From IMG/VR virus record IMGVR_UViG_3300007538_000027, positions 1-61,011 of that record: DNA of 61,011 bases. The stretch is one strand, 5' to 3'. Below the pieces are notes generated by a model that did no database searches, was not told the DNA's origin, and was given only the letters and a program-made list of their open reading frames with translations. The position numbers and the translations under genes were made by a program. Shown one piece after another: positions 6,639-61,011 of this stretch. The stretch is from a virus (taxonomy: Duplodnaviria > Caudoviricetes). Position 1 is the stretch's first letter; every line of letters starts with the position of its first letter.

Positions 6639-6896
6639 ATGAAAAAGGTTAAATGTGATAACTGTAACGGTCGTGGGTATATCCACAATTTTAATCATGT
6701 TGCAAATGGTCTTTGTTTCAAATGTAACGGTAAAGGTATTGTTGATAGTTGTCTAACTAAAGCTTTTGTCTTCCCAATACCTACAAAAGAACAAGCAACT
6801 CAAGCTTTTAACGGTAGTGAGTACCATTGGGACCTTTTCCAACAAAAGTTTAATATAAATCCAAGAGATGCACTAAGTAACCTATATAAGGATTGA
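6639..6896 (+). CDS. small zinc-finger protein (DnaJ-type CxxCxGxG x2)
   Basis: CDNCNGRG and CFKCNGKG. Confidence 0.7.
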   Translation: MKKVKCDNCNGRGYIHNFNHVANGLCFKCNGKGIVDSCLTKAFVFPIPTKEQATQAFNGSEYHWDLFQQKFNINPRDALSNLYKD

Positions 6897-6900
6897 TTAA

Positions 6901-7101
6901 ATGACACTTTATAAAGTATGGTCACAAGATAGGCTATCTAACTATGGGTATGATATTGATAGCTTAGAACAATTACAACTTTTAGAGTTTGAAACTGATT
7001 TAAGCTGGTCTAGTGTAGTATCTACTAATGATATACAGCAATTTATTGAGTCAGTACATAATGAGACTAATGTTAAATTATCATATGCTTTTGCATTCTG
7101 A
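6901..7101 (+). CDS. early hypothetical protein
   Basis: operon context. Confidence 0.55.
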   Translation: MTLYKVWSQDRLSNYGYDIDSLEQLQLLEFETDLSWSSVVSTNDIQQFIESVHNETNVKLSYAFAF

Positions 7102-7193
7102 TAACAACTTAAAAAGAAAAGTTGACAGTTAAATTTAGTCGTGTTCTAATGACTCTATTGAAACACAACACACCACTTTAAAGAGACTTAATC

Positions 7194-11939: not shown

Positions 11940-11960
11940 GAATAGTTATCGTTGAAATTT

Positions 11961-11985
11961 AGCCCACCTCTGGTGGGTTTTTTCA
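11961..11985 (+). terminator. intrinsic terminator
   Basis: AGCCCACC/GGTGGGTT stem plus T tract. Confidence 0.85.
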
Positions 11986-12001
11986 TACCTATAATTTACC
12001 C

Positions 12002-30979: not shown

Positions 30980-31226
30980 CATTTTATCTTAATTTTCATT
31001 AAGGGTGGATCATATCATCTTCCGTTCTGGAAGTCGGACGCTTTTTCATTTAGTGACTAAACTAAACTACTTCCTGTTATTAAGCTTATTCGCATAAGCT
31101 CAGGTGATCTCTGAACCTTCCTACTCTGTAGGCTTGGCTGCTGATTGCCATCATCATTACATGTTAAGGTTTCCAGCAATTCATCCAATTTTCAACTTAC
31201 GTTCCCATAAGAGGCTGCATCAGTTT
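30980..31226 (-). mobile_element. group I self-splicing intron (247 nt, no ORF) in nrdA
   Basis: 5' exon ends in U, intron ends in G; P AAUUGCUGGAAA, Q AAUCAGCAG, R GUUCAGAGAUCA, S GAUGAUAUGAUCC; P1 CUGU/GCAG, P10 CUGAU/GUCAG; removal restores SNLCQE. Confidence 0.92.
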
Positions 31227-32502
31227 ACAGGTTAGAACTATAAATCTTATCTTTGTGTGGAGTATGGCGGTTTAATTCATCTGTTCTATGCAGATAAACC
31301 TGACCAGACTCTTGTCCTTGTACTAAGGCTTCAATTGCCAGCTTACGTGCATTAATATACTTACGTGGTTTAATTGACTTCTCATACTCTTCATATAGGT
31401 TATCAAAATTAGTCTGGTCTCCTTCGTACATAGCTTCGTATAATTCAGGTGAGTCCGCATAACTAACTAACATCCAATCTCTATTCTGATACACTTTCTT
31501 AGCGAATAGTCTATTGCTACCAAAAGAGTAATGAATACCATCGACCCTTACTTTAGTTGCAGTCTTCTTGCTCTTCCAAGTAAGAATATCCATTACCTCT
31601 GGGTCAAGACAGTTAAGATGCATAGTGGCACTACCACCGCGGGAATTCTGTAGATTAGCTGCCACAGCACTCTCAGTCATCTTGTAGTAAGGTCTCTTTC
31701 CCTGATGTATTGTAGTACCACCACGAACACCATCTCCCTTACTGCGTGTCTTTAAGTGAGAACCAATACCAGCACTTGCGCAGGTTAACATATATGCTAT
31801 GTGGTCTCCCGCAGCCAATGAGTCAGCCGTATCATGTGTGGTGAACGTAGCACAACTGGCGAATGATCGGCTCGGTGTGCGAAGATTAGTCATAAATGGA
31901 GTTGGTGCACAAATCTTCTTATCGCTTAAGTAGTGGTAATACTTAATAACATCCGTCATTCGTCTATCTAATGGCATATTCTTCATGTTAGCCATTGCCA
32001 TCCCCATATACATAAACTGAGGGGACTCTAAGGCAATATTCTTAATACGATTACGCAAAACGTACTTATCACTAATTTGTTTTATTTCTGGGTAAGAAGA
32101 CTTCAAGTCTTTAGAATGATCTATTACTTCTTGTAGTTTCTCAAAATCTTCTTCGCTATAAGGTAACTTCTCCCAATAGCCTTGACCTTCCATATTATCA
32201 TGATGTTGTTTTAGTGTAGGAATCTTTTTGAAACCACCGAAAGCTTCTTTGTATAAATTACCTGCAAGCACTCTACCAGCTAACATGAAATGTTTTTCAT
32301 CGAACTCTTCCACACAAGCATCAATAATAGCTTTATCTATATCTCTGGTAGTACATTTATCGCTTAATAACTTCAATGCTTTAAAAGATATATCAGACCA
32401 ATTCACTTTACGGGCTGCTGCCCATCTCATCTTCTTATTAAATTTCTCTGCGTCAAAGGGAACACTAGTTCCATCACTTTTAATTACAGTGGTAATACTC
32501 AA
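31227..32502 (-). CDS. nrdA: ribonucleotide reductase alpha subunit, exon 1 (spliced product 752 aa)
   Basis: N-terminal ATP cone, ESPQFMY, PTPFM, ASC, RGGSA; ends SSNL immediately before the catalytic Cys. Confidence 0.92.
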
Positions 32503-58289: not shown

Positions 58290-58615
58290 GGAGGTTTATT
58301 GTGGATAGTAAAAGGGTTACAAAAGAAGAAGTGGTAAATAAGTTTATCAATACATTAAAGTATGCAGGTGTAAACCAAACTAATTACAGAGAAGATTTGT
58401 GTGCTGCAATAAAATTACAATTGGATAAGACTGACCTTACTTACAAAGTAGAACTAACACAGGTACCAACTAATGGTTGGTATGAAGAATATACTCAAAT
58501 GCAATTTATCTTAGTGGAAGATTGTAATCATGAGTGGGAATACTCAGCCTCCTATATTTGTCATACGGATAGAGTTAATATTTATACTTGTAAACTATGT
58601 GGAAAGGTGAAATAA
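58286..58615 (+). CDS. hypothetical protein with C-terminal CxH/CxxC
   Basis: CNHEW...CKLCG. Confidence 0.6.
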   Translation: MRRFIVDSKRVTKEEVVNKFINTLKYAGVNQTNYREDLCAAIKLQLDKTDLTYKVELTQVPTNGWYEEYTQMQFILVEDCNHEWEYSASYICHTDRVNIYTCKLCGKVK

Positions 58616-58818
58616 TTATGAAGATTGAATTAGAGAATGGAAAGTACACTTACATGTTTGATGAGAATACTGGTGTGCAGGAAGTATTACGTTATGGAGA
58701 ACCTTGGCGTGGTAAGGAACTAACTGGTGATAATTTTATCTTAGCTATGGCACATGAAATCCAACGTCTACGTAAGCAGCAAAGCTACAAGGAAGATTTC
58801 GAATCAGAGTGTGGTTAG
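58597..58818 (+). CDS. hypothetical protein
   Basis: GKYT...LRYGEPWR motif. Confidence 0.6.
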   Translation: MWKGEIIMKIELENGKYTYMFDENTGVQEVLRYGEPWRGKELTGDNFILAMAHEIQRLRKQQSYKEDFESECG

Positions 58819-58973: not shown

Positions 58974-59162
58974 ATGAGTAATATAAAAACTGGACCACTT
59001 AGGTACCATGTAGATGTGAACACTGATAAAGCAATGCAGTATATTGATGACTTGGTTACACAAGGTATAGATGTAGATTACAAAACTGCGGAGGATTATG
59101 CTATGAGTTTAATTGAATATAAATACAACATTGAAATATGTGGTGATTACACAGGACCATAA
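58974..59162 (+). CDS. hypothetical protein
   Basis: AAGGGG SD. Confidence 0.55.
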   Translation: MSNIKTGPLRYHVDVNTDKAMQYIDDLVTQGIDVDYKTAEDYAMSLIEYKYNIEICGDYTGP

Positions 59163-59164
59163 AT

Positions 59165-59353
59165 ATGAAACATCCTCAATACATAGCATGTAAACGTGAT
59201 GGTACGTTTGAGTTTAGAAATGGTGAACCTGTACTTAAACAAGAAGGTGATGTGGCAATATTTAATTGCGCAGACTCCTTGGATTTAAAGTTAATCAGTT
59301 TAGCTGAAGATTATTTCAATTATAGTATTGACAATAATAAGAAAGAAGGTTAA
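59165..59353 (+). CDS. hypothetical protein
   Basis: operon context. Confidence 0.5.
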   Translation: MKHPQYIACKRDGTFEFRNGEPVLKQEGDVAIFNCADSLDLKLISLAEDYFNYSIDNNKKEG

Positions 59354-59372
59354 TATACATTATAGAAACAAA

Positions 59373-59446
59373 GTTCCGTTAGCTCAGATGGATAGAGCAA
59401 CAGCCTTCTAAGCTGTGGGTCGAAAGTTCAAATCTTTCACGGGATA
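59373..59446 (+). tRNA. tRNA-Arg(UCU), no encoded CCA
   Basis: acceptor GTTCCGT/ACGGGAT, anticodon arm ACAGC-CTTCTAA-GCTGT, T arm GAAAG-TTCAAAT-CTTTC. Confidence 0.92.
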
Positions 59447-59447
59447 C

Positions 59448-59523
59448 GCAGTATTAACTCAGTTGGTAGAGTGTCTGATTTCCAATCAGAATGTCGAGAG
59501 TTCGAACCTCTCATACTGCTCCA
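59448..59523 (+). tRNA. tRNA-Gly(UCC)
   Basis: acceptor GCAGTAT/ATACTGC, U73, CCA; anticodon arm TCTGA-TTTCCAA-TCAGA; T loop TTCGAAC. Confidence 0.93.
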
Positions 59524-59527
59524 ATTT

Positions 59528-59604
59528 TAAAACACCGTCAGTACTAGACAACACCATTGAGATATAGTACAGTTTTACTCAGTGTAGTGTGAGAAGGTGT
59601 TTTA
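59528..59604 (+). ncRNA. small structured RNA (closing stem plus loop-loop/pseudoknot pairing)
   Basis: TAAAACACC/GGTGTTTTA, GTACTA/TAGTAC, CATTGAG/CTCAGTG. Confidence 0.45.
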
Positions 59605-59609
59605 TAAAT

Positions 59610-60166
59610 AGTGAGGATACCCCACCCCCTATCTGTGATACCATAAGAAATTGCGACTATGGTTAGAAGTTTAAATGGCAAACAATGTAAGGTACGTTCC
59701 CTCTCACGATCACAGTGATGACAAATACCTTCTATACAACACTTCTGATGTGTATAAACTCAAGACGTATAGTAGATAGAAAGCGCCATACAACGTGAAG
59801 TTGGTCCCTCGTAGAGGTGGTTAGCGAAAACACTAGGACATAACCCTGCCTAGTATAAAACGGTTTTGGGTATGACGCTGTAGTTGAAATTGTCACCATT
59901 CTGAGAAGTTCTGCCATGCAGGTAATTTGGACTAGTCCTACAGATAATTTCTGTGGCTGAGATCGTACACTAGATGTGTGGTCGATAAACTCTATCTTAT
60001 TTAGTTCACCAATCTTAAGGGTGTTTAAGAATAAGACACGTAAGCGATCATGTGAACAAAGAACGCAACACCGATTTTCTCCCATTATTAGAGGTTGGTC
60101 GGTATATAAGTGGCAACCTTAGTAATGACTCAAAACTTTATAAATAACCTTGGAAACGTCCTCACT
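59610..60166 (+). ncRNA. large (~557 nt) structured non-coding RNA, ROOL/GOLLD-like candidate
   Basis: closing stem AGTGAGGAT/GTCCTCACT, many internal helices and a pseudoknot; no credible ORF; in tRNA operon. Confidence 0.55.
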
Positions 60167-60298
60167 TGCGAGTTAGGTTCCTCTACTAAGCTCTATTATA
60201 AAGTCAGAAGTAAGACACTGAGAATGTCTAGGTAGACGTGCCGAACAATTGAGTTCCACTGAAGACAGGTTAGCTTCAGGTATTGTACTCATAATATT

Positions 60299-60322
60299 AG
60301 CCCACCATAGGTGGGCTTTTTC
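60299..60322 (+). terminator. intrinsic terminator ending tRNA/ncRNA unit
   Basis: AGCCCACC/GGTGGGCT stem plus T tract. Confidence 0.85.
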
Positions 60323-60425
60323 ATACCTGTAATTTATACTCACCTCTCATAAGTTTGACCAACATATTCATACGTGGTAACATACTATTATAAATTAAAC
60401 AACAGTGTTTATAACACAATAACAG

Positions 60426-60644
60426 TTGGAAATGAAATCCAATAAGGAAATAAACGTGATCTGTCCATGTGGCGAGATAATTAAAAACCCCTCATACGTC
60501 TCAAACTCTAAGTACGATTACATGTGTAATTCATGTAAGGGTTATGAAGATGAGTATGAACTACCAATTACTGGTGAACAACTATTTAATGTTGCACTAG
60601 ATGAATATAATAAACAAGAATTATTAGGTGATGAAAATGGCTAG
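60426..60644 (+). CDS. small zinc-binding protein
   Basis: CPCG...CNSC. Confidence 0.55.
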   Translation: MEMKSNKEINVICPCGEIIKNPSYVSNSKYDYMCNSCKGYEDEYELPITGEQLFNVALDEYNKQELLGDENG

Positions 60645-60975
60645 ACCTACAACAGAAAATGTGGCTGAGCGTAACTGGCGGGAAATTCCTGCTAAAATGA
60701 AGGCTAAGGTACCTACTCTAGTAGAACAAGCTATGAAGCGTATAGAGGCTATTCTTAATGACGATAAGGCTGCTGATAGTACTGTTCTTCGTGCTGCTGA
60801 TACTACTCTGAAATTATATAAAGAAATGAAGGAATCAGAGGCTGCTACCTTGGCTGCGGATGAGAAAGAAGATGCAGAAGCAGAAGGGTTAGCAGCAGCA
60901 TTAGCTTTACCAAAGTCGAATGCACCATCAATCAGCTTAGTAGCATTCACACCTCCAGAACAGAAACAAGGTTAA
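60628..60975 (+). CDS. helical protein, possible terminase small subunit
   Basis: MARP N-terminus, helical core, position after tRNA cluster; inference only. Confidence 0.35.
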   Translation: MMKMARPTTENVAERNWREIPAKMKAKVPTLVEQAMKRIEAILNDDKAADSTVLRAADTTLKLYKEMKESEAATLAADEKEDAEAEGLAAALALPKSNAPSISLVAFTPPEQKQG

Positions 60976-61011
60976 CATTTGCTTACCCTATTAACCATCT
61001 GATATAATTAC

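What the first reader, a model, noticed from the sequence alone, without database searches (positions are those of the whole stretch)
59610..60166. ~557-nt ornate non-coding RNA in the tRNA operon
Seen: ends pair (AGTGAGGAT 59610 / GTCCTCACT 60158). Internal helices: AAGGTA/TACCTT (59689/59726), TATACA/TGTATA (59733/59751) whose loop ACTTCTGA pairs with TTAGAAGT (59663, pseudoknot), ACTAGG/CCTAGT (59832/59849), CTGTAG/CTACAG (59878/59938), GATCG/CGATC (59961/60045), TCTTATT/AATAAGA (59995/60030) and a 14-bp helix 60083-60097/60114-60127. It looks more GC-rich than other intergenic DNA, has no sense ORF of 60 aa or more, and is closed by the terminator at 60299. Known: ROOL and GOLLD are large phage-associated RNAs of unknown function found beside tRNAs. 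I cannot assign the family; it may be a new class.
Basis: partly seen in the sequence, partly recalled or inferred. Interest (0 to 1): 0.7.

Follow-up and report, generated by a model that had tools for sequence, protein, structure and literature searches.

The report
tRNA-linked modular phage long noncoding RNA
This gene-free stretch behind two phage tRNA genes is most likely a real untranslated RNA made of small exchangeable folded modules, and it is a relative of the abundant but unexplained long noncoding RNA of cholera phage ICP1.

Summary
No Rfam 15 family matches.

Comparison with relatives shows what it is. Window 59524-60323 is a non-coding unit behind tRNA-Arg and tRNA-Gly. A sigma-70-like promoter lies at 59328 and an intrinsic terminator at 60299. 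It sits downstream of a gp141-like gene, as the ICP1 lncRNA does. It shares with ICP1 a roughly 65-nt three-hairpin 3' domain (60186-60246). That domain is present in 7 lineages, and 7 of its 13 pairs change on both sides.

Two more modules have covariation support:
- a second pseudoknot at 59832-59871.

The rest is a mosaic. Modules are inserted, lost or moved between phages and within natural populations. A single 557-nt fold closed by paired ends is therefore not supported.

Function is inferred from ICP1 experiments only: a trans-acting base-pairing or sponge RNA. This scan reached the same reading earlier on related DNA (e1-5883989, e1-5969672).

The parts
59328..59356 (+). sigma-70-like promoter TTGACA-17-TAATAT just upstream of tRNA-Arg; likely start of the tRNA plus lncRNA unit
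   Evidence: 10 of 12 consensus matches; consensus scan only. ICP1 and L005 start their lncRNA with TTGACA-17-TAAGAT (sequences printed)
59373..59447 (+). tRNA-Arg (anticodon UCU)
59448..59523 (+). tRNA-Gly (anticodon UCC)
59524..59610 (+). leader: a stable hairpin (AAAACACC/GGUGUUUU closing) that contains a 40-nt patch 95% identical to Shewanella phages 1/4 and 1/40; the patch also reads as a weaker promoter-like site, 59545-59573
   Evidence: z -2.66, 0 of 200 shuffles; gap coordinates 13-52
59640..59663 (+). module M1, hairpin ACCAUA/UAUGGU with a 12-nt loop
   Evidence: 6 pairs, invariant in 4 of 4 sequences, so no covariation information
59663..59748 (+). module M1 long-range helix / pseudoknot: UUAGAAGU (59663-59670) with ACUUCUGA (59741-59748), enclosing a variable hairpin domain (59685-59737; AAGGUA/UACCUU 59689/59726); the 3' strand overlaps the ACAC/GUGU hairpin 59739-59753
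   Evidence: pairs kept 8/8 window, 7/8 L004, 8/8 phage 1/4, 8/8 phage 1/40, 6/8 L116 with two internal both-side changes, 8/8 L108; enclosed domain 70, 70, 108, 108, 57, 40 nt, always folding closed
59832..59871 (+). module M2, H-type pseudoknot: stem 1 ACUAGG/CCUAGU (59832/59849), stem 2 loop ACCC (59843-59846) with GGGU (59868-59871)
   Evidence: stem 1 has 5 of 6 pairs invariant and the sixth unpaired in one of 5 sequences; stem 2 has 2 of 4 pairs changed on both sides plus one wobble in L116; 98% of cells paired; 20 of 500 shuffles reach the score
59872..60033 (+). module M3, an insert with no counterpart in any fetched relative; absent from some natural variants, present in diverged form in others; holds a 25-nt look-alike (76%) of M1
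   Evidence: no homolog; X7 joint 59870->60036; X7 contig 59841-60066 with 18 substitutions and 3 one-base deletions, 59998 T>A with 60033 A>T compensatory; repeat D1
60034..60164 (+). module M4 (75% identical to L004) with the 14-bp helix 60083-60097/60114-60127, and a roughly 55-nt window-specific insert (about 60137-60192) that carries GUCCUCACU
   Evidence: Helix weakly supported: the L004 3' strand differs (by my reading of the alignment about 5 of 14 pairs remain) and 60119 T>G in 3 runs breaks a pair
60165..60257 (+). conserved 3' domain shared with the ICP1 lncRNA: hairpin P3a, linker CAGAAGUA (60205-60212), P3b AGACA/UGUCU (60213-60229, 7-nt loop), P3c GGUA/UGCC with GACG loop (60231-60242)
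   Evidence: 76.9 bits, E 3e-20; 7 sequences, 95.5% of cells paired, 7 of 13 pairs changed on both sides, 0 of 500 shuffles
60299..60323 (+). intrinsic terminator (8-bp stem, 6 G-C, then T run): 3' end of the unit
   Evidence: equivalent terminators follow the 3' domain in ICP1, L005 and L108 (sequences)
58597..58818 (+). gp141-like gene (phrog_3052): marker of synteny with the ICP1 lncRNA locus
   Evidence: 34% identity to ICP1 ORF141; linked through 10AMN and qdvp001 at E 2e-13 and 2e-8

Best explanation
Window 59524-60323 is an untranslated RNA of about 800 nt. It is probably transcribed with tRNA-Arg(UCU) and tRNA-Gly(UCC) from the promoter at 59328 and ends at the terminator at 60299. It is the counterpart, in a Shewanella-phage-like lineage, of the ICP1-type phage lncRNA.

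It is not one large fold. It is a chain of independently folding modules:
- leader hairpin;
- M1 pseudoknot with a variable hairpin;
- M2 pseudoknot;
- the M3 insert;
- M4;
- a conserved three-hairpin 3' domain, then the terminator.

Phages gain, lose and move these modules.

Shown here: non-coding status, synteny with the ICP1 locus, module mosaicism, and base pairing in M1, M2 and the 3' domain.

Inferred: transcription as one unit, release of the tRNAs by processing, and function.

Most likely mode of action, about 0.3 within this reading: an abundant trans-acting RNA that base-pairs with, or sponges, phage, host or satellite transcripts. The invariant single-stranded linker and loops of the 3' domain would then be the handle for a conserved partner (a protein or an RNase) that gives stability or processing, and the exchangeable modules would supply the specificity.
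For: Non-coding:
- Sense-strand ORFs are at most 48 aa.
- The antisense 117-aa ORF has no Pfam or PHROG hit.
- The 18 substitutions of a natural variant fall 6/7/5 on its codon positions 1/2/3. I counted these by hand.

Transcription unit: promoter-like site and terminator; no other + strand terminator-like site in 59100-60650.

Same locus as ICP1: a gp141-like gene lies upstream.

Shared sequence and structure:
- 48 nt are 87.5% identical to the ICP1 gp140/gp139 gap.
- Model R1 finds the 3' domain in window, L004, phage 1/4, ICP1, L005 and L108. It also finds it in L116, which was not used to build the model (42 bits, E 4e-10).
- 7 of 13 pairs change on both sides, and 0 of 500 shuffles reach the score.
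- The M1 helix and its variable insert and the M2 pseudoknot also show compensatory changes.

Mosaicism.

tRNAs precede the RNA in window, phages 1/4 and 1/40, L108, L116, L004 and IBT_VpB-34.

ICP1 experiments, from passages I read:
- It is the most abundant ICP1 transcript, about 800 nt (PMC7567579).
- Northern blot and Hi-GRIL-seq chimeras with many ICP1 and PLE transcripts; a sponge role was proposed (bioRxiv 10.1101/2022.04.08.487710).
Against: - There is no expression evidence for this phage.
- Thermodynamic stability is not above shuffles, for the whole or for M1, M2, M3, M4 and the 3' domain.
- Homology to ICP1 is limited to about 65 nt. Upstream of that nothing aligns.
- The 3' domain is absent at E<=0.1 from 4 of 5 whole phage records searched (qdvp001, VnaP, IBT_VpB-34, PWH3a-P1). 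The fifth, phage 1/40, has only a weak 18.6-bit hit at E 0.02 elsewhere in its genome. At E<=10, loci 10AMN and P018-4 show only hits of about 11 bits or none. So the domain is not a defining part of every such locus.
- In the window, hairpin P3a has two non-standard pairs.
- Covariation for M1 and M2 rests mainly on one or two diverged lineages (L116, L108), and alignment A8 is fitted to the model.
- L004 has an A.C mismatch in the M1 helix.
- Of 5 new loci found through the gp141-like protein, only 1 (L116) has tRNA and module matches within 4 kb.
- No significant complementarity to the rest of the 61-kb window was found, so no target can be named.
- The genes downstream are of unknown function, so 'upstream of lysis genes' is not shown here.
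Confidence: 0.62

Rival explanations
1. An operon of several separate small stable RNAs rather than one long RNA. The primary transcript would be cut by the tRNA-processing enzymes and RNase E into pieces the size of modules, each acting alone, as in the phage T4 tRNA region with its small stable RNAs (recalled).
For: - Modules move independently between phages.
- In L116 the 3' domain lies internally, directly before M2.
- In Vibrio phages P018-4 and 10AMN only the roughly 125-nt 5' module is present. It ends in a U-rich stretch, and in 10AMN a tRNA-Arg follows it.
- An earlier scan note, e1-5969672, reads a relative this way.
Against: - The only terminator-like site on the + strand lies at the end.
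- In ICP1, coverage and Northern blot were reported as one transcript of about 800 nt (passages). I could not see the figures.
- No processing sites can be read from the sequence.
Confidence: 0.2
2. Mostly non-functional spacer. On this view it is a hyperplastic recombination zone behind phage tRNA genes, filled with remnants. Only short elements would be functional: the promoter, processing signals and the terminator.
For: - The MFE is not better than shuffles.
- There is large insertion and deletion polymorphism.
- M3 has no homolog among the fetched relatives.
- Phages 1/4 and 1/40 carry an annotated pseudo-tRNA beside their tRNAs.
Against: - Patches 87-100% identical are kept between phages whose flanking proteins are only 35-57% identical.
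- Compensatory changes occur in three modules.
- A natural M3 variant keeps its hairpins through a compensatory change and, by my reading of the substitution list, through a shift of pairing register.
- No tRNA-like match was found in the stretch.
- The ICP1 counterpart is conserved in all 67 isolates (passage).
Confidence: 0.1
3. A cis-acting leader or attenuator for the downstream genes. Folding of the RNA would decide read-through of the terminator at 60299 into the next operon (lysis genes in ICP1).
For: - In ICP1-like phages the RNA always lies directly upstream of the lysis cluster (passage).
- The 3' domain sits next to the terminator in ICP1 and L005.
- AGACA, UGUCU and AGAC within the 3' domain could form alternative pairings (seen in the sequence).
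Against: - A separate promoter-like site, TTGACC-17-TAACAT, follows the terminator at 60355. By my reading of the sequence printed (no scan was run on that locus), ICP1 likewise has a TTGACA..TATAAT-like site between its terminator and gp139.
- In ICP1 the RNA accumulates as the most abundant transcript throughout infection, whereas lysis genes are late (passages).
- In L116 the 3' domain is about 130 nt from the terminator, with other modules in between.
Confidence: 0.05
4. It encodes small proteins. Micro-ORFs are annotated as hypothetical proteins in phages 1/4 and 1/40 (S14_84-86, S140_84-85).
For: Annotated CDSs overlap the homologous modules. The window has ORFs of 34 aa (59675-59779) and 48 aa.
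Against: - By my reading, the S140_85 frame is not kept in the window: its N-terminal and C-terminal parts fall in different frames, and the segment between them differs by 38 nt.
- By my reading of the sequence, the 3' domain has stop codons in all three frames in the window.
- The substitution pattern shows no third-position excess (hand count).
- The paired changes fit RNA helices.
Confidence: 0.03

Closest known systems
ICP1 lncRNA (about 800 nt, between gp140 and gp139 of Vibrio phage ICP1; Barth et al. 2020 mSystems PMC7567579; Boyd et al. 2021 PMC9040626; Dunham et al. 2022 bioRxiv 10.1101/2022.04.08.487710; passages read)
   Same: - An ORF-free stretch of 0.8-1 kb on the same strand as its neighbours.
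- A gp141-like gene upstream.
- A sigma-70-like promoter and an intrinsic terminator.
- A shared roughly 65-nt three-hairpin 3' domain with covariation.
- No Rfam family matches the window's stretch. The ICP1 sequence itself was not searched against Rfam here.
   Different: - Here two tRNAs are fused to the 5' side; the paper says ICP1 has no tRNAs, and ARAGORN finds none in the locus.
- Everything upstream of the 3' domain is unrelated in sequence.
- The Vibrio-phage 5' module and the repeated GCUACC word (4 copies in ICP1) are absent from the window.
- Downstream genes are not recognisably lysis genes.
- Expression is not shown.
GOLLD and ROOL large ornate RNAs (Harris and Breaker 2018, cited in PMC7567579; cryo-EM paper PMC12286853 seen only in a search listing)
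   Same: A large non-coding RNA in phage genomes, often next to tRNA genes, with unknown function.
   Different: - No Rfam 15 match, even at E<=10.
- No evidence for one conserved global architecture; the content is a mosaic.
- Nothing here bears on multimer formation.
Phage T4 tRNA-region small stable RNAs (RNA C and RNA D, 'species 1 and 2'); recalled from memory, not fetched
   Same: Stable non-coding RNAs of unknown function, encoded with tRNAs in one phage transcription unit.
   Different: - Those are about 120-140 nt each.
- No sequence comparison was made here.
- Whether the window's RNA is cut into such pieces is unknown.

Membership tests
ICP1-type phage lncRNA locus | ORF-free stretch of roughly 0.5-1 kb on the coding strand | tested here: met
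   59524-60425 has no sense ORF longer than 48 aa inside it
ICP1-type phage lncRNA locus | position downstream of gp141/gp140-like genes | tested here: met
   Window 58597-58818 aligns with ICP1 ORF141 and its homologs in qdvp001, 10AMN and phage 1/4
ICP1-type phage lncRNA locus | directly upstream of the lysis cluster | tested here: inconclusive
   The downstream ORFs 60426-60644 and 60628-60975 match PHROGs of unknown function. They show no similarity to the ICP1 ORFs in the locus. The window ends at 61011
ICP1-type phage lncRNA locus | sequence or structure homology to the ICP1 lncRNA | tested here: met
   Homology covers the 3' domain only: 48 nt at 87.5% and R1 at 76.9 bits. The rest does not align
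ICP1-type phage lncRNA locus | abundant transcript during infection | not testable with these tools
   The 18 public runs that hold the DNA are all DNA runs, and the phage is uncultured
GOLLD / ROOL (Rfam) | match to the family covariance model | tested here: not met
   Nothing reaches gathering score in the stretch. At E<=10 there are only 5 sub-threshold chance-level matches besides the tRNA. That these families are in Rfam 15 is recalled
tmRNA / RNase P RNA | ARAGORN tmRNA call or Rfam model match | tested here: not met
tRNA or pseudo-tRNA remnants | tRNA model match inside 59524-60323 | tested here: not met
   (only the two tRNAs upstream)
T4-type tRNA-operon stable RNAs | co-transcription with tRNAs and processing to stable small RNAs | not testable with these tools
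   Co-location is seen and the single promoter and terminator are consistent with it. Processing needs RNA data

The most novel reading that the evidence does not exclude
Phages of the ICP1, Vibrio and Shewanella groups keep a highly expressed RNA 'accessory island': a tRNA-linked transcript into which small folded RNA cassettes are shuffled by recombination. The cassettes include two pseudoknots and a three-hairpin 3' domain. Each cassette would be a decoy or sponge for a different host, satellite or defence RNA or protein. The invariant 3' domain would be the common handle for stability. That would make it an RNA-level counterpart of the protein anti-defence islands of phages.
Probability: 0.22. 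Interest if true: 0.8.

Novelty: new variant of a known kind. Interest (0 to 1): 0.55.

Why it matters
The ICP1 lncRNA is the most abundant transcript of a well-studied phage, and it has had no known function since 2020.

Three points make that question more testable:
- A relative exists outside the Vibrio phages.
- Only about 65 nt are shared, and those fold into three hairpins with compensatory changes.
- The remainder is built from movable folded cassettes tied to tRNA genes.

Together these give a defined, conserved handle for mutation and pull-down. The cassettes can be swapped. Cultured phages of harmless hosts (Shewanella phage 1/4) carry the same parts.

The result also warns that several 'hypothetical protein' annotations in phages 1/4 and 1/40 probably lie on RNA modules.

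Tried and rejected
- **Rfam.** Searches at gathering score and at E<=10 found no family. ARAGORN found no tmRNA.
- **Thermodynamics.** The whole region and six of seven pieces fold no better than shuffles.
- **Expression.** No RNA holder is listed among the 18 runs.
- **Host mimicry.** The 3' motif pattern has 0 matches in 185,579 species genomes.
- **Antisense targets within the window.** Only 12-13-nt chance-level matches, E 0.6-2.4.
- **Anticodon-loop idea.** I tested whether the RNA carries 7-mers complementary to the anticodon loops of the co-encoded tRNAs.
  - The window scores 2 of 2: UUAGAAG for Arg-UCU and UUGGAAA for Gly-UCC, with shuffle P of 0.09 and 0.06.
  - Phages 1/4 and 1/40 score 1 of 2 each, through the same homologous motif. 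L108 scores 0 of 2, L109 0 of 1, IBT_VpB-34 0 of 1 and 10AMN 0 of 1.
  - Not supported overall.
- **GCUACC word.** It is repeated in ICP1 (4 copies), qdvp001 (3), VnaP (2) and IBT_VpB-34 (2), but absent from the window.
- **IMG/VR scans with short M1 and M2 words.**
  - They gave 53 and 41 stretches.
  - On BLAST filtering of all 106 loci then held against the twelve gap sequences, only one hit fell outside the relatives already known. It was a 71-nt match of 10AMN to L091. None matched the window's stretch.
- **Flawed gapped pattern.** The M1 pattern had a gap lower bound that excluded even the known members. Its 0 hits say nothing, and I did not repeat it.
- **Downstream 115-aa protein.** As a probe it found only the L004 contig and two weak partial hits.
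- **Replication-primer or origin idea.**
  - The ICP1 paper places the theta origin near 60 kb (passage).
  - The lncRNA lies near 80-81 kb in record HQ641347.
  - The two numberings may differ, so this is only weak evidence against.
- **Coding.** The antisense 117-aa ORF has no Pfam or PHROG hit.
- **Tandem or ToxI-like repeats.** Only six two-copy short direct repeats were found.
Full report
**1. The observation**

Every complementarity in the finding is present at the stated coordinates. The two 9-mers at the ends pair 9 of 9 with one G-U. The pseudoknot pair pairs 8 of 8 with one G-U. The other stems are perfect. The sense strand has no ORF of 60 aa or more inside 59610-60166; the longest is 48 aa, and an antisense ORF of 117 aa spans 59732-60085. 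GC is 0.402 against 0.350 for the window. The terminator is a consensus intrinsic one at 60299-60317.

As a single sequence, though, none of this exceeds chance:
- The MFE z-score is 0.08 on the + strand and -0.97 on the - strand.
- Local 6-mer stems number 18 against 10.95 +/- 4.3 in shuffles, and 7% of shuffles reach 18.
- All 6-mer stems number 45 against 45.1.
- A perfect 9-mer stem is expected 0.76 times in shuffles.
- Cut into seven pieces, only the leader 59524-59610 is unusually stable, with z -2.66.

**2. Known RNA families**

Rfam 15 gives only the two tRNAs and an unrelated group I intron in the whole window at gathering score. A permissive search of 59450-60450 at E<=10 gives, besides the tRNA, five chance-level matches far below threshold. 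ARAGORN finds two tRNAs, Arg-UCU at 59373-59447 and Gly-UCC at 59448-59523, and no tmRNA.

**3. Relatives and the link to ICP1**

The window is a complete IMG/VR record of 61 kb, estimated 45% of a genome. BLASTN of 59524-60330 against 50,697 phage records hits 75 records, 4 Shewanella and 71 Vibrio. None covers 80% of the query.

Shewanella phages 1/4 and 1/40 share separate patches, at 59598-59688, 59736-59784 and 59828-59873. Phage 1/4 also shares 60200-60259. These lie within a 1.5-1.8 kb gene-poor stretch behind their own tRNA-Gly and tRNA-Arg.

The Vibrio hits listed (all ICP1 or JSF isolates) share 48 nt, window 60202-60249, at 87.5%. The match lies in the roughly 1-kb ORF-less gap between gp140 and gp139.

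The literature describes that gap as follows (passages read):
- It encodes the most abundant ICP1 transcript, about 800 nt, which the authors compared to GOLLD and ROOL. Its function is unknown (PMC7567579).
- A preprint reports a Northern blot and Hi-GRIL-seq chimeras of the lncRNA with many ICP1 and satellite transcripts, and proposes a base-pairing or sponge role (10.1101/2022.04.08.487710).

My searches listed no paper on a tRNA-linked relative or on a conserved 3' domain. I could not see the figures or supplements.

**4. Same locus**

The window ORF 58597-58818 (phrog_3052) is homologous to ORFs of Vibrio phages 10AMN and qdvp001, and these in turn match ICP1 ORF141. A five-way alignment shows 14 invariant columns. 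The orientation of promoter, RNA and terminator is the same as in ICP1:
- ICP1 and the IMG/VR relative L005 start with TTGACA-17-TAAGAT and end with the shared motif plus a terminator.
- The window has TTGACA-17-TAATAT at 59328-59356 in front of tRNA-Arg, and one terminator at 60299.

**5. The conserved 3' domain**

Pattern scans found the motif in IMG/VR and in the metagenome collection:
- IMG/VR gave 5 loci: L004, L005 and its twin L007, phage 1/4 and ICP1.
- The metagenome collection gave 4 loci: twins of ICP1, of L004 and of the window, plus one new lineage, L108, which again has tRNA-Arg and tRNA-Gly in front.
- It found none in 185,579 species genomes.

RNAalifold on six lineages predicts three hairpins. 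A covariance model built from them, R1, scores the window at 76.9 bits. It also finds L116, which was not used to build the model, at 42 bits and E 4e-10. L116 had been reached independently through the gp141-like protein.

On the seven sequences:
- 95.5% of cells pair.
- 7 of 13 pairs change on both sides.
- No shuffle of 500 reaches this.
- Sliding the partner by 1-3 columns drops pairing to 19-42%.

One pair of hairpin P3c occurs as G-C, U-A, U-G and C-G. The GACG loop is identical in all seven sequences and the linker CAGARGUA is nearly so.

Caveats apply. The alignment is fitted to the model, and six of the seven rows built it.

The domain is not universal:
- Four of five whole phage records searched (qdvp001, VnaP, IBT_VpB-34, PWH3a-P1) have no hit at E<=0.1.
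- The fifth, phage 1/40, has only an 18.6-bit hit at E 0.02 elsewhere in its genome.
- Loci 10AMN and P018-4 give nothing better than about 11 bits.

Upstream of the domain nothing aligns between the Shewanella-type and Vibrio-type RNAs.

**6.

UUAGAAGU (59663) and ACUUCUGA (59741) enclose a hairpin domain. Across six sequences the helix keeps the following pairs:

| Sequence | Pairs kept | Note |
|---|---|---|
| window | 8 of 8 | |
| L004 | 7 of 8 | A.C mismatch |
| phage 1/4 | 8 of 8 | |
| phage 1/40 | 8 of 8 | |
| L116 | 6 of 8 | strands CAUGAGGU/ACCUCAGA; two internal pairs changed on both sides |
| L108 | 8 of 8 | strands CAGAAGUU/AACUUCUG |

The enclosed domain is 70, 70, 108, 108, 57 and 40 nt. 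It is unrelated in sequence between lineages, yet always folds as a closed stem.

The two covarying positions lie in the loop of the ACAC/GUGU hairpin. The pseudoknot reading therefore holds.

**7. Module M2**

ACUAGG/CCUAGU is almost invariant in five sequences. Five of its six pairs never vary, and the sixth is unpaired in one sequence. The loop ACCC pairs with GGGU at 59868. In L116 these become CUUC and GAGG, which makes two both-side changes and one wobble. Overall 98% of cells pair, and 20 of 500 shuffles reach the score. The support comes from a single diverged lineage.

**8. Mosaicism**

All-against-all BLAST of twelve loci shows patches shared in different combinations and orders. Window 59872-60033 (M3) has no homolog in any fetched relative.

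Contigs from four public DNA runs laid on the stretch show natural variants:
- Some skip 59870-60036, 59767-60030, 59605-59736 or 60244-60292.
- One diverged M3 copy has 18 substitutions and three single-base deletions.

By my reading of the substitution list, the inner CACC/GGUG hairpin is rebuilt in a shifted register. The changes at 59948-59949 fall in a hairpin loop.

The same 18 substitutions fall 6/7/5 on codon positions of the antisense ORF (hand count). That ORF has no family match.

The 14-bp helix is weakly supported:
- L004 has a different 3' strand.
- 60119 T>G, seen in three runs, and 60094 G>A each break a pair.

The 'ends' helix rests on a roughly 55-nt insert that L004 lacks at this place. 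By my reading of the sequences, a similar short stretch lies in front of M2 in phages 1/4, 1/40 and L004.

**9. Mechanism**

Shown here:
- The stretch is a non-coding unit.
- It lies at the ICP1 lncRNA locus.
- It has three structured modules with compensatory change.
- Its modules turn over rapidly.

Inferred:
- Transcription is from the promoter at 59328 through the tRNAs.
- The tRNAs are released by the usual processing enzymes.
- An RNA of about 800 nt accumulates.

For function I commit to the ICP1-derived model. The RNA would act in trans as an abundant base-pairing or sponge RNA. The invariant 3' domain would be a handle for a conserved partner that controls stability or processing. The exchangeable modules would give specificity.

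I put about 0.6 on identity and architecture, and about 0.3 on this mechanism within that reading. I found no candidate target in the 61-kb window.

**10. Ideas tested and dropped**

- Anticodon-loop complementarity is striking in the window (2 of 2) but fails in the other lineages.
- The 3' motif does not mimic any host sequence.
- A role at a replication origin has no support: the ICP1 theta origin lies near 60 kb, away from the lncRNA.
- No public RNA run holds the stretch.

**11. Earlier notes of this scan**

Two notes on related DNA reached compatible readings.
- e1-5883989 calls it the tRNA-linked counterpart of the ICP1 lncRNA.
- e1-5969672 describes a patchwork of exchangeable RNA cassettes with one strongly supported pseudoknot.

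I had reached the ICP1 link before looking them up. The second note prompted the further search that led to L116.

**12. Verdict**

This is a real feature whose boundaries and architecture differ from the finding. I file it as a tRNA-linked, modular variant of a published but functionally unexplained kind of phage lncRNA.

Noticed in passing
window 30987-31238 (-): Group I catalytic intron: Rfam RF00028, 66.1 bits against a gathering score of 50, full model length. The host gene was not examined.
   Followed up: no
window 11959-11990 (+) and 60297-60328 (+): Two terminator regions are 87.5% identical over 32 nt. This may be a recurrent terminator cassette of this phage.
   Followed up: no
L014 1498-1635, L015 1498-1635, L011, L012, L016, L005, L003 (Vibrio phages): A roughly 125-nt 5' module directly follows the TTGACA-17-TAAGAT promoter in 7 Vibrio-phage loci. 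7 of its 27 predicted pairs change on both sides. In P018-4 and 10AMN it is the only lncRNA module present at the locus, and in 10AMN a tRNA-Arg(UCU) follows it. It may be a separate small RNA. It is not present in the window.
   Followed up: partly
L003 (ICP1) gap 1150-2200; L011, L012, L013: The 6-mer GCUACC occurs 4 times in the ICP1 lncRNA, 3 times in qdvp001, and twice each in VnaP and IBT_VpB-34. About 0.2 per kb is expected. It is absent from the window's RNA. It may be a repeated binding or tertiary-contact word.
   Followed up: partly
L001 2821-2979, 3616-3804, 3895-3993; L002 2757-2927, 3371-3529: Hypothetical-protein CDSs annotated in Shewanella phages 1/4 and 1/40 lie on the non-coding modules. 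By my reading, the frame of S140_85 is not conserved in the window. These are probably over-annotation.
   Followed up: partly
L116 5692-7260: A new IMG/VR lineage with tRNA-Gly(UCC) followed by about 1.5 kb of non-coding DNA. An M1-like pseudoknot lies at 6655-6765. The 3' domain (7032-7112) sits directly in front of M2 (about 7093-7140) rather than at the 3' end.
   Followed up: partly
L013 1176-1267: ARAGORN calls a 92-nt tRNA-Met(CAU) at the start of the IBT_VpB-34 non-coding stretch. That is unusually long, so it may hold an insert or be a tRNA-like unit.
   Followed up: no
window 59886-59910 versus 59647-59671: The window-specific insert M3 contains a 25-nt stretch 76% identical to the M1 core, including a second AGAAGU. 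A third AGAAGU lies in the 3' domain linker at 60207. All three could pair with the single ACUUCU loop at 59741. In L116 only the M1-internal partner covaries with the loop.
   Followed up: partly
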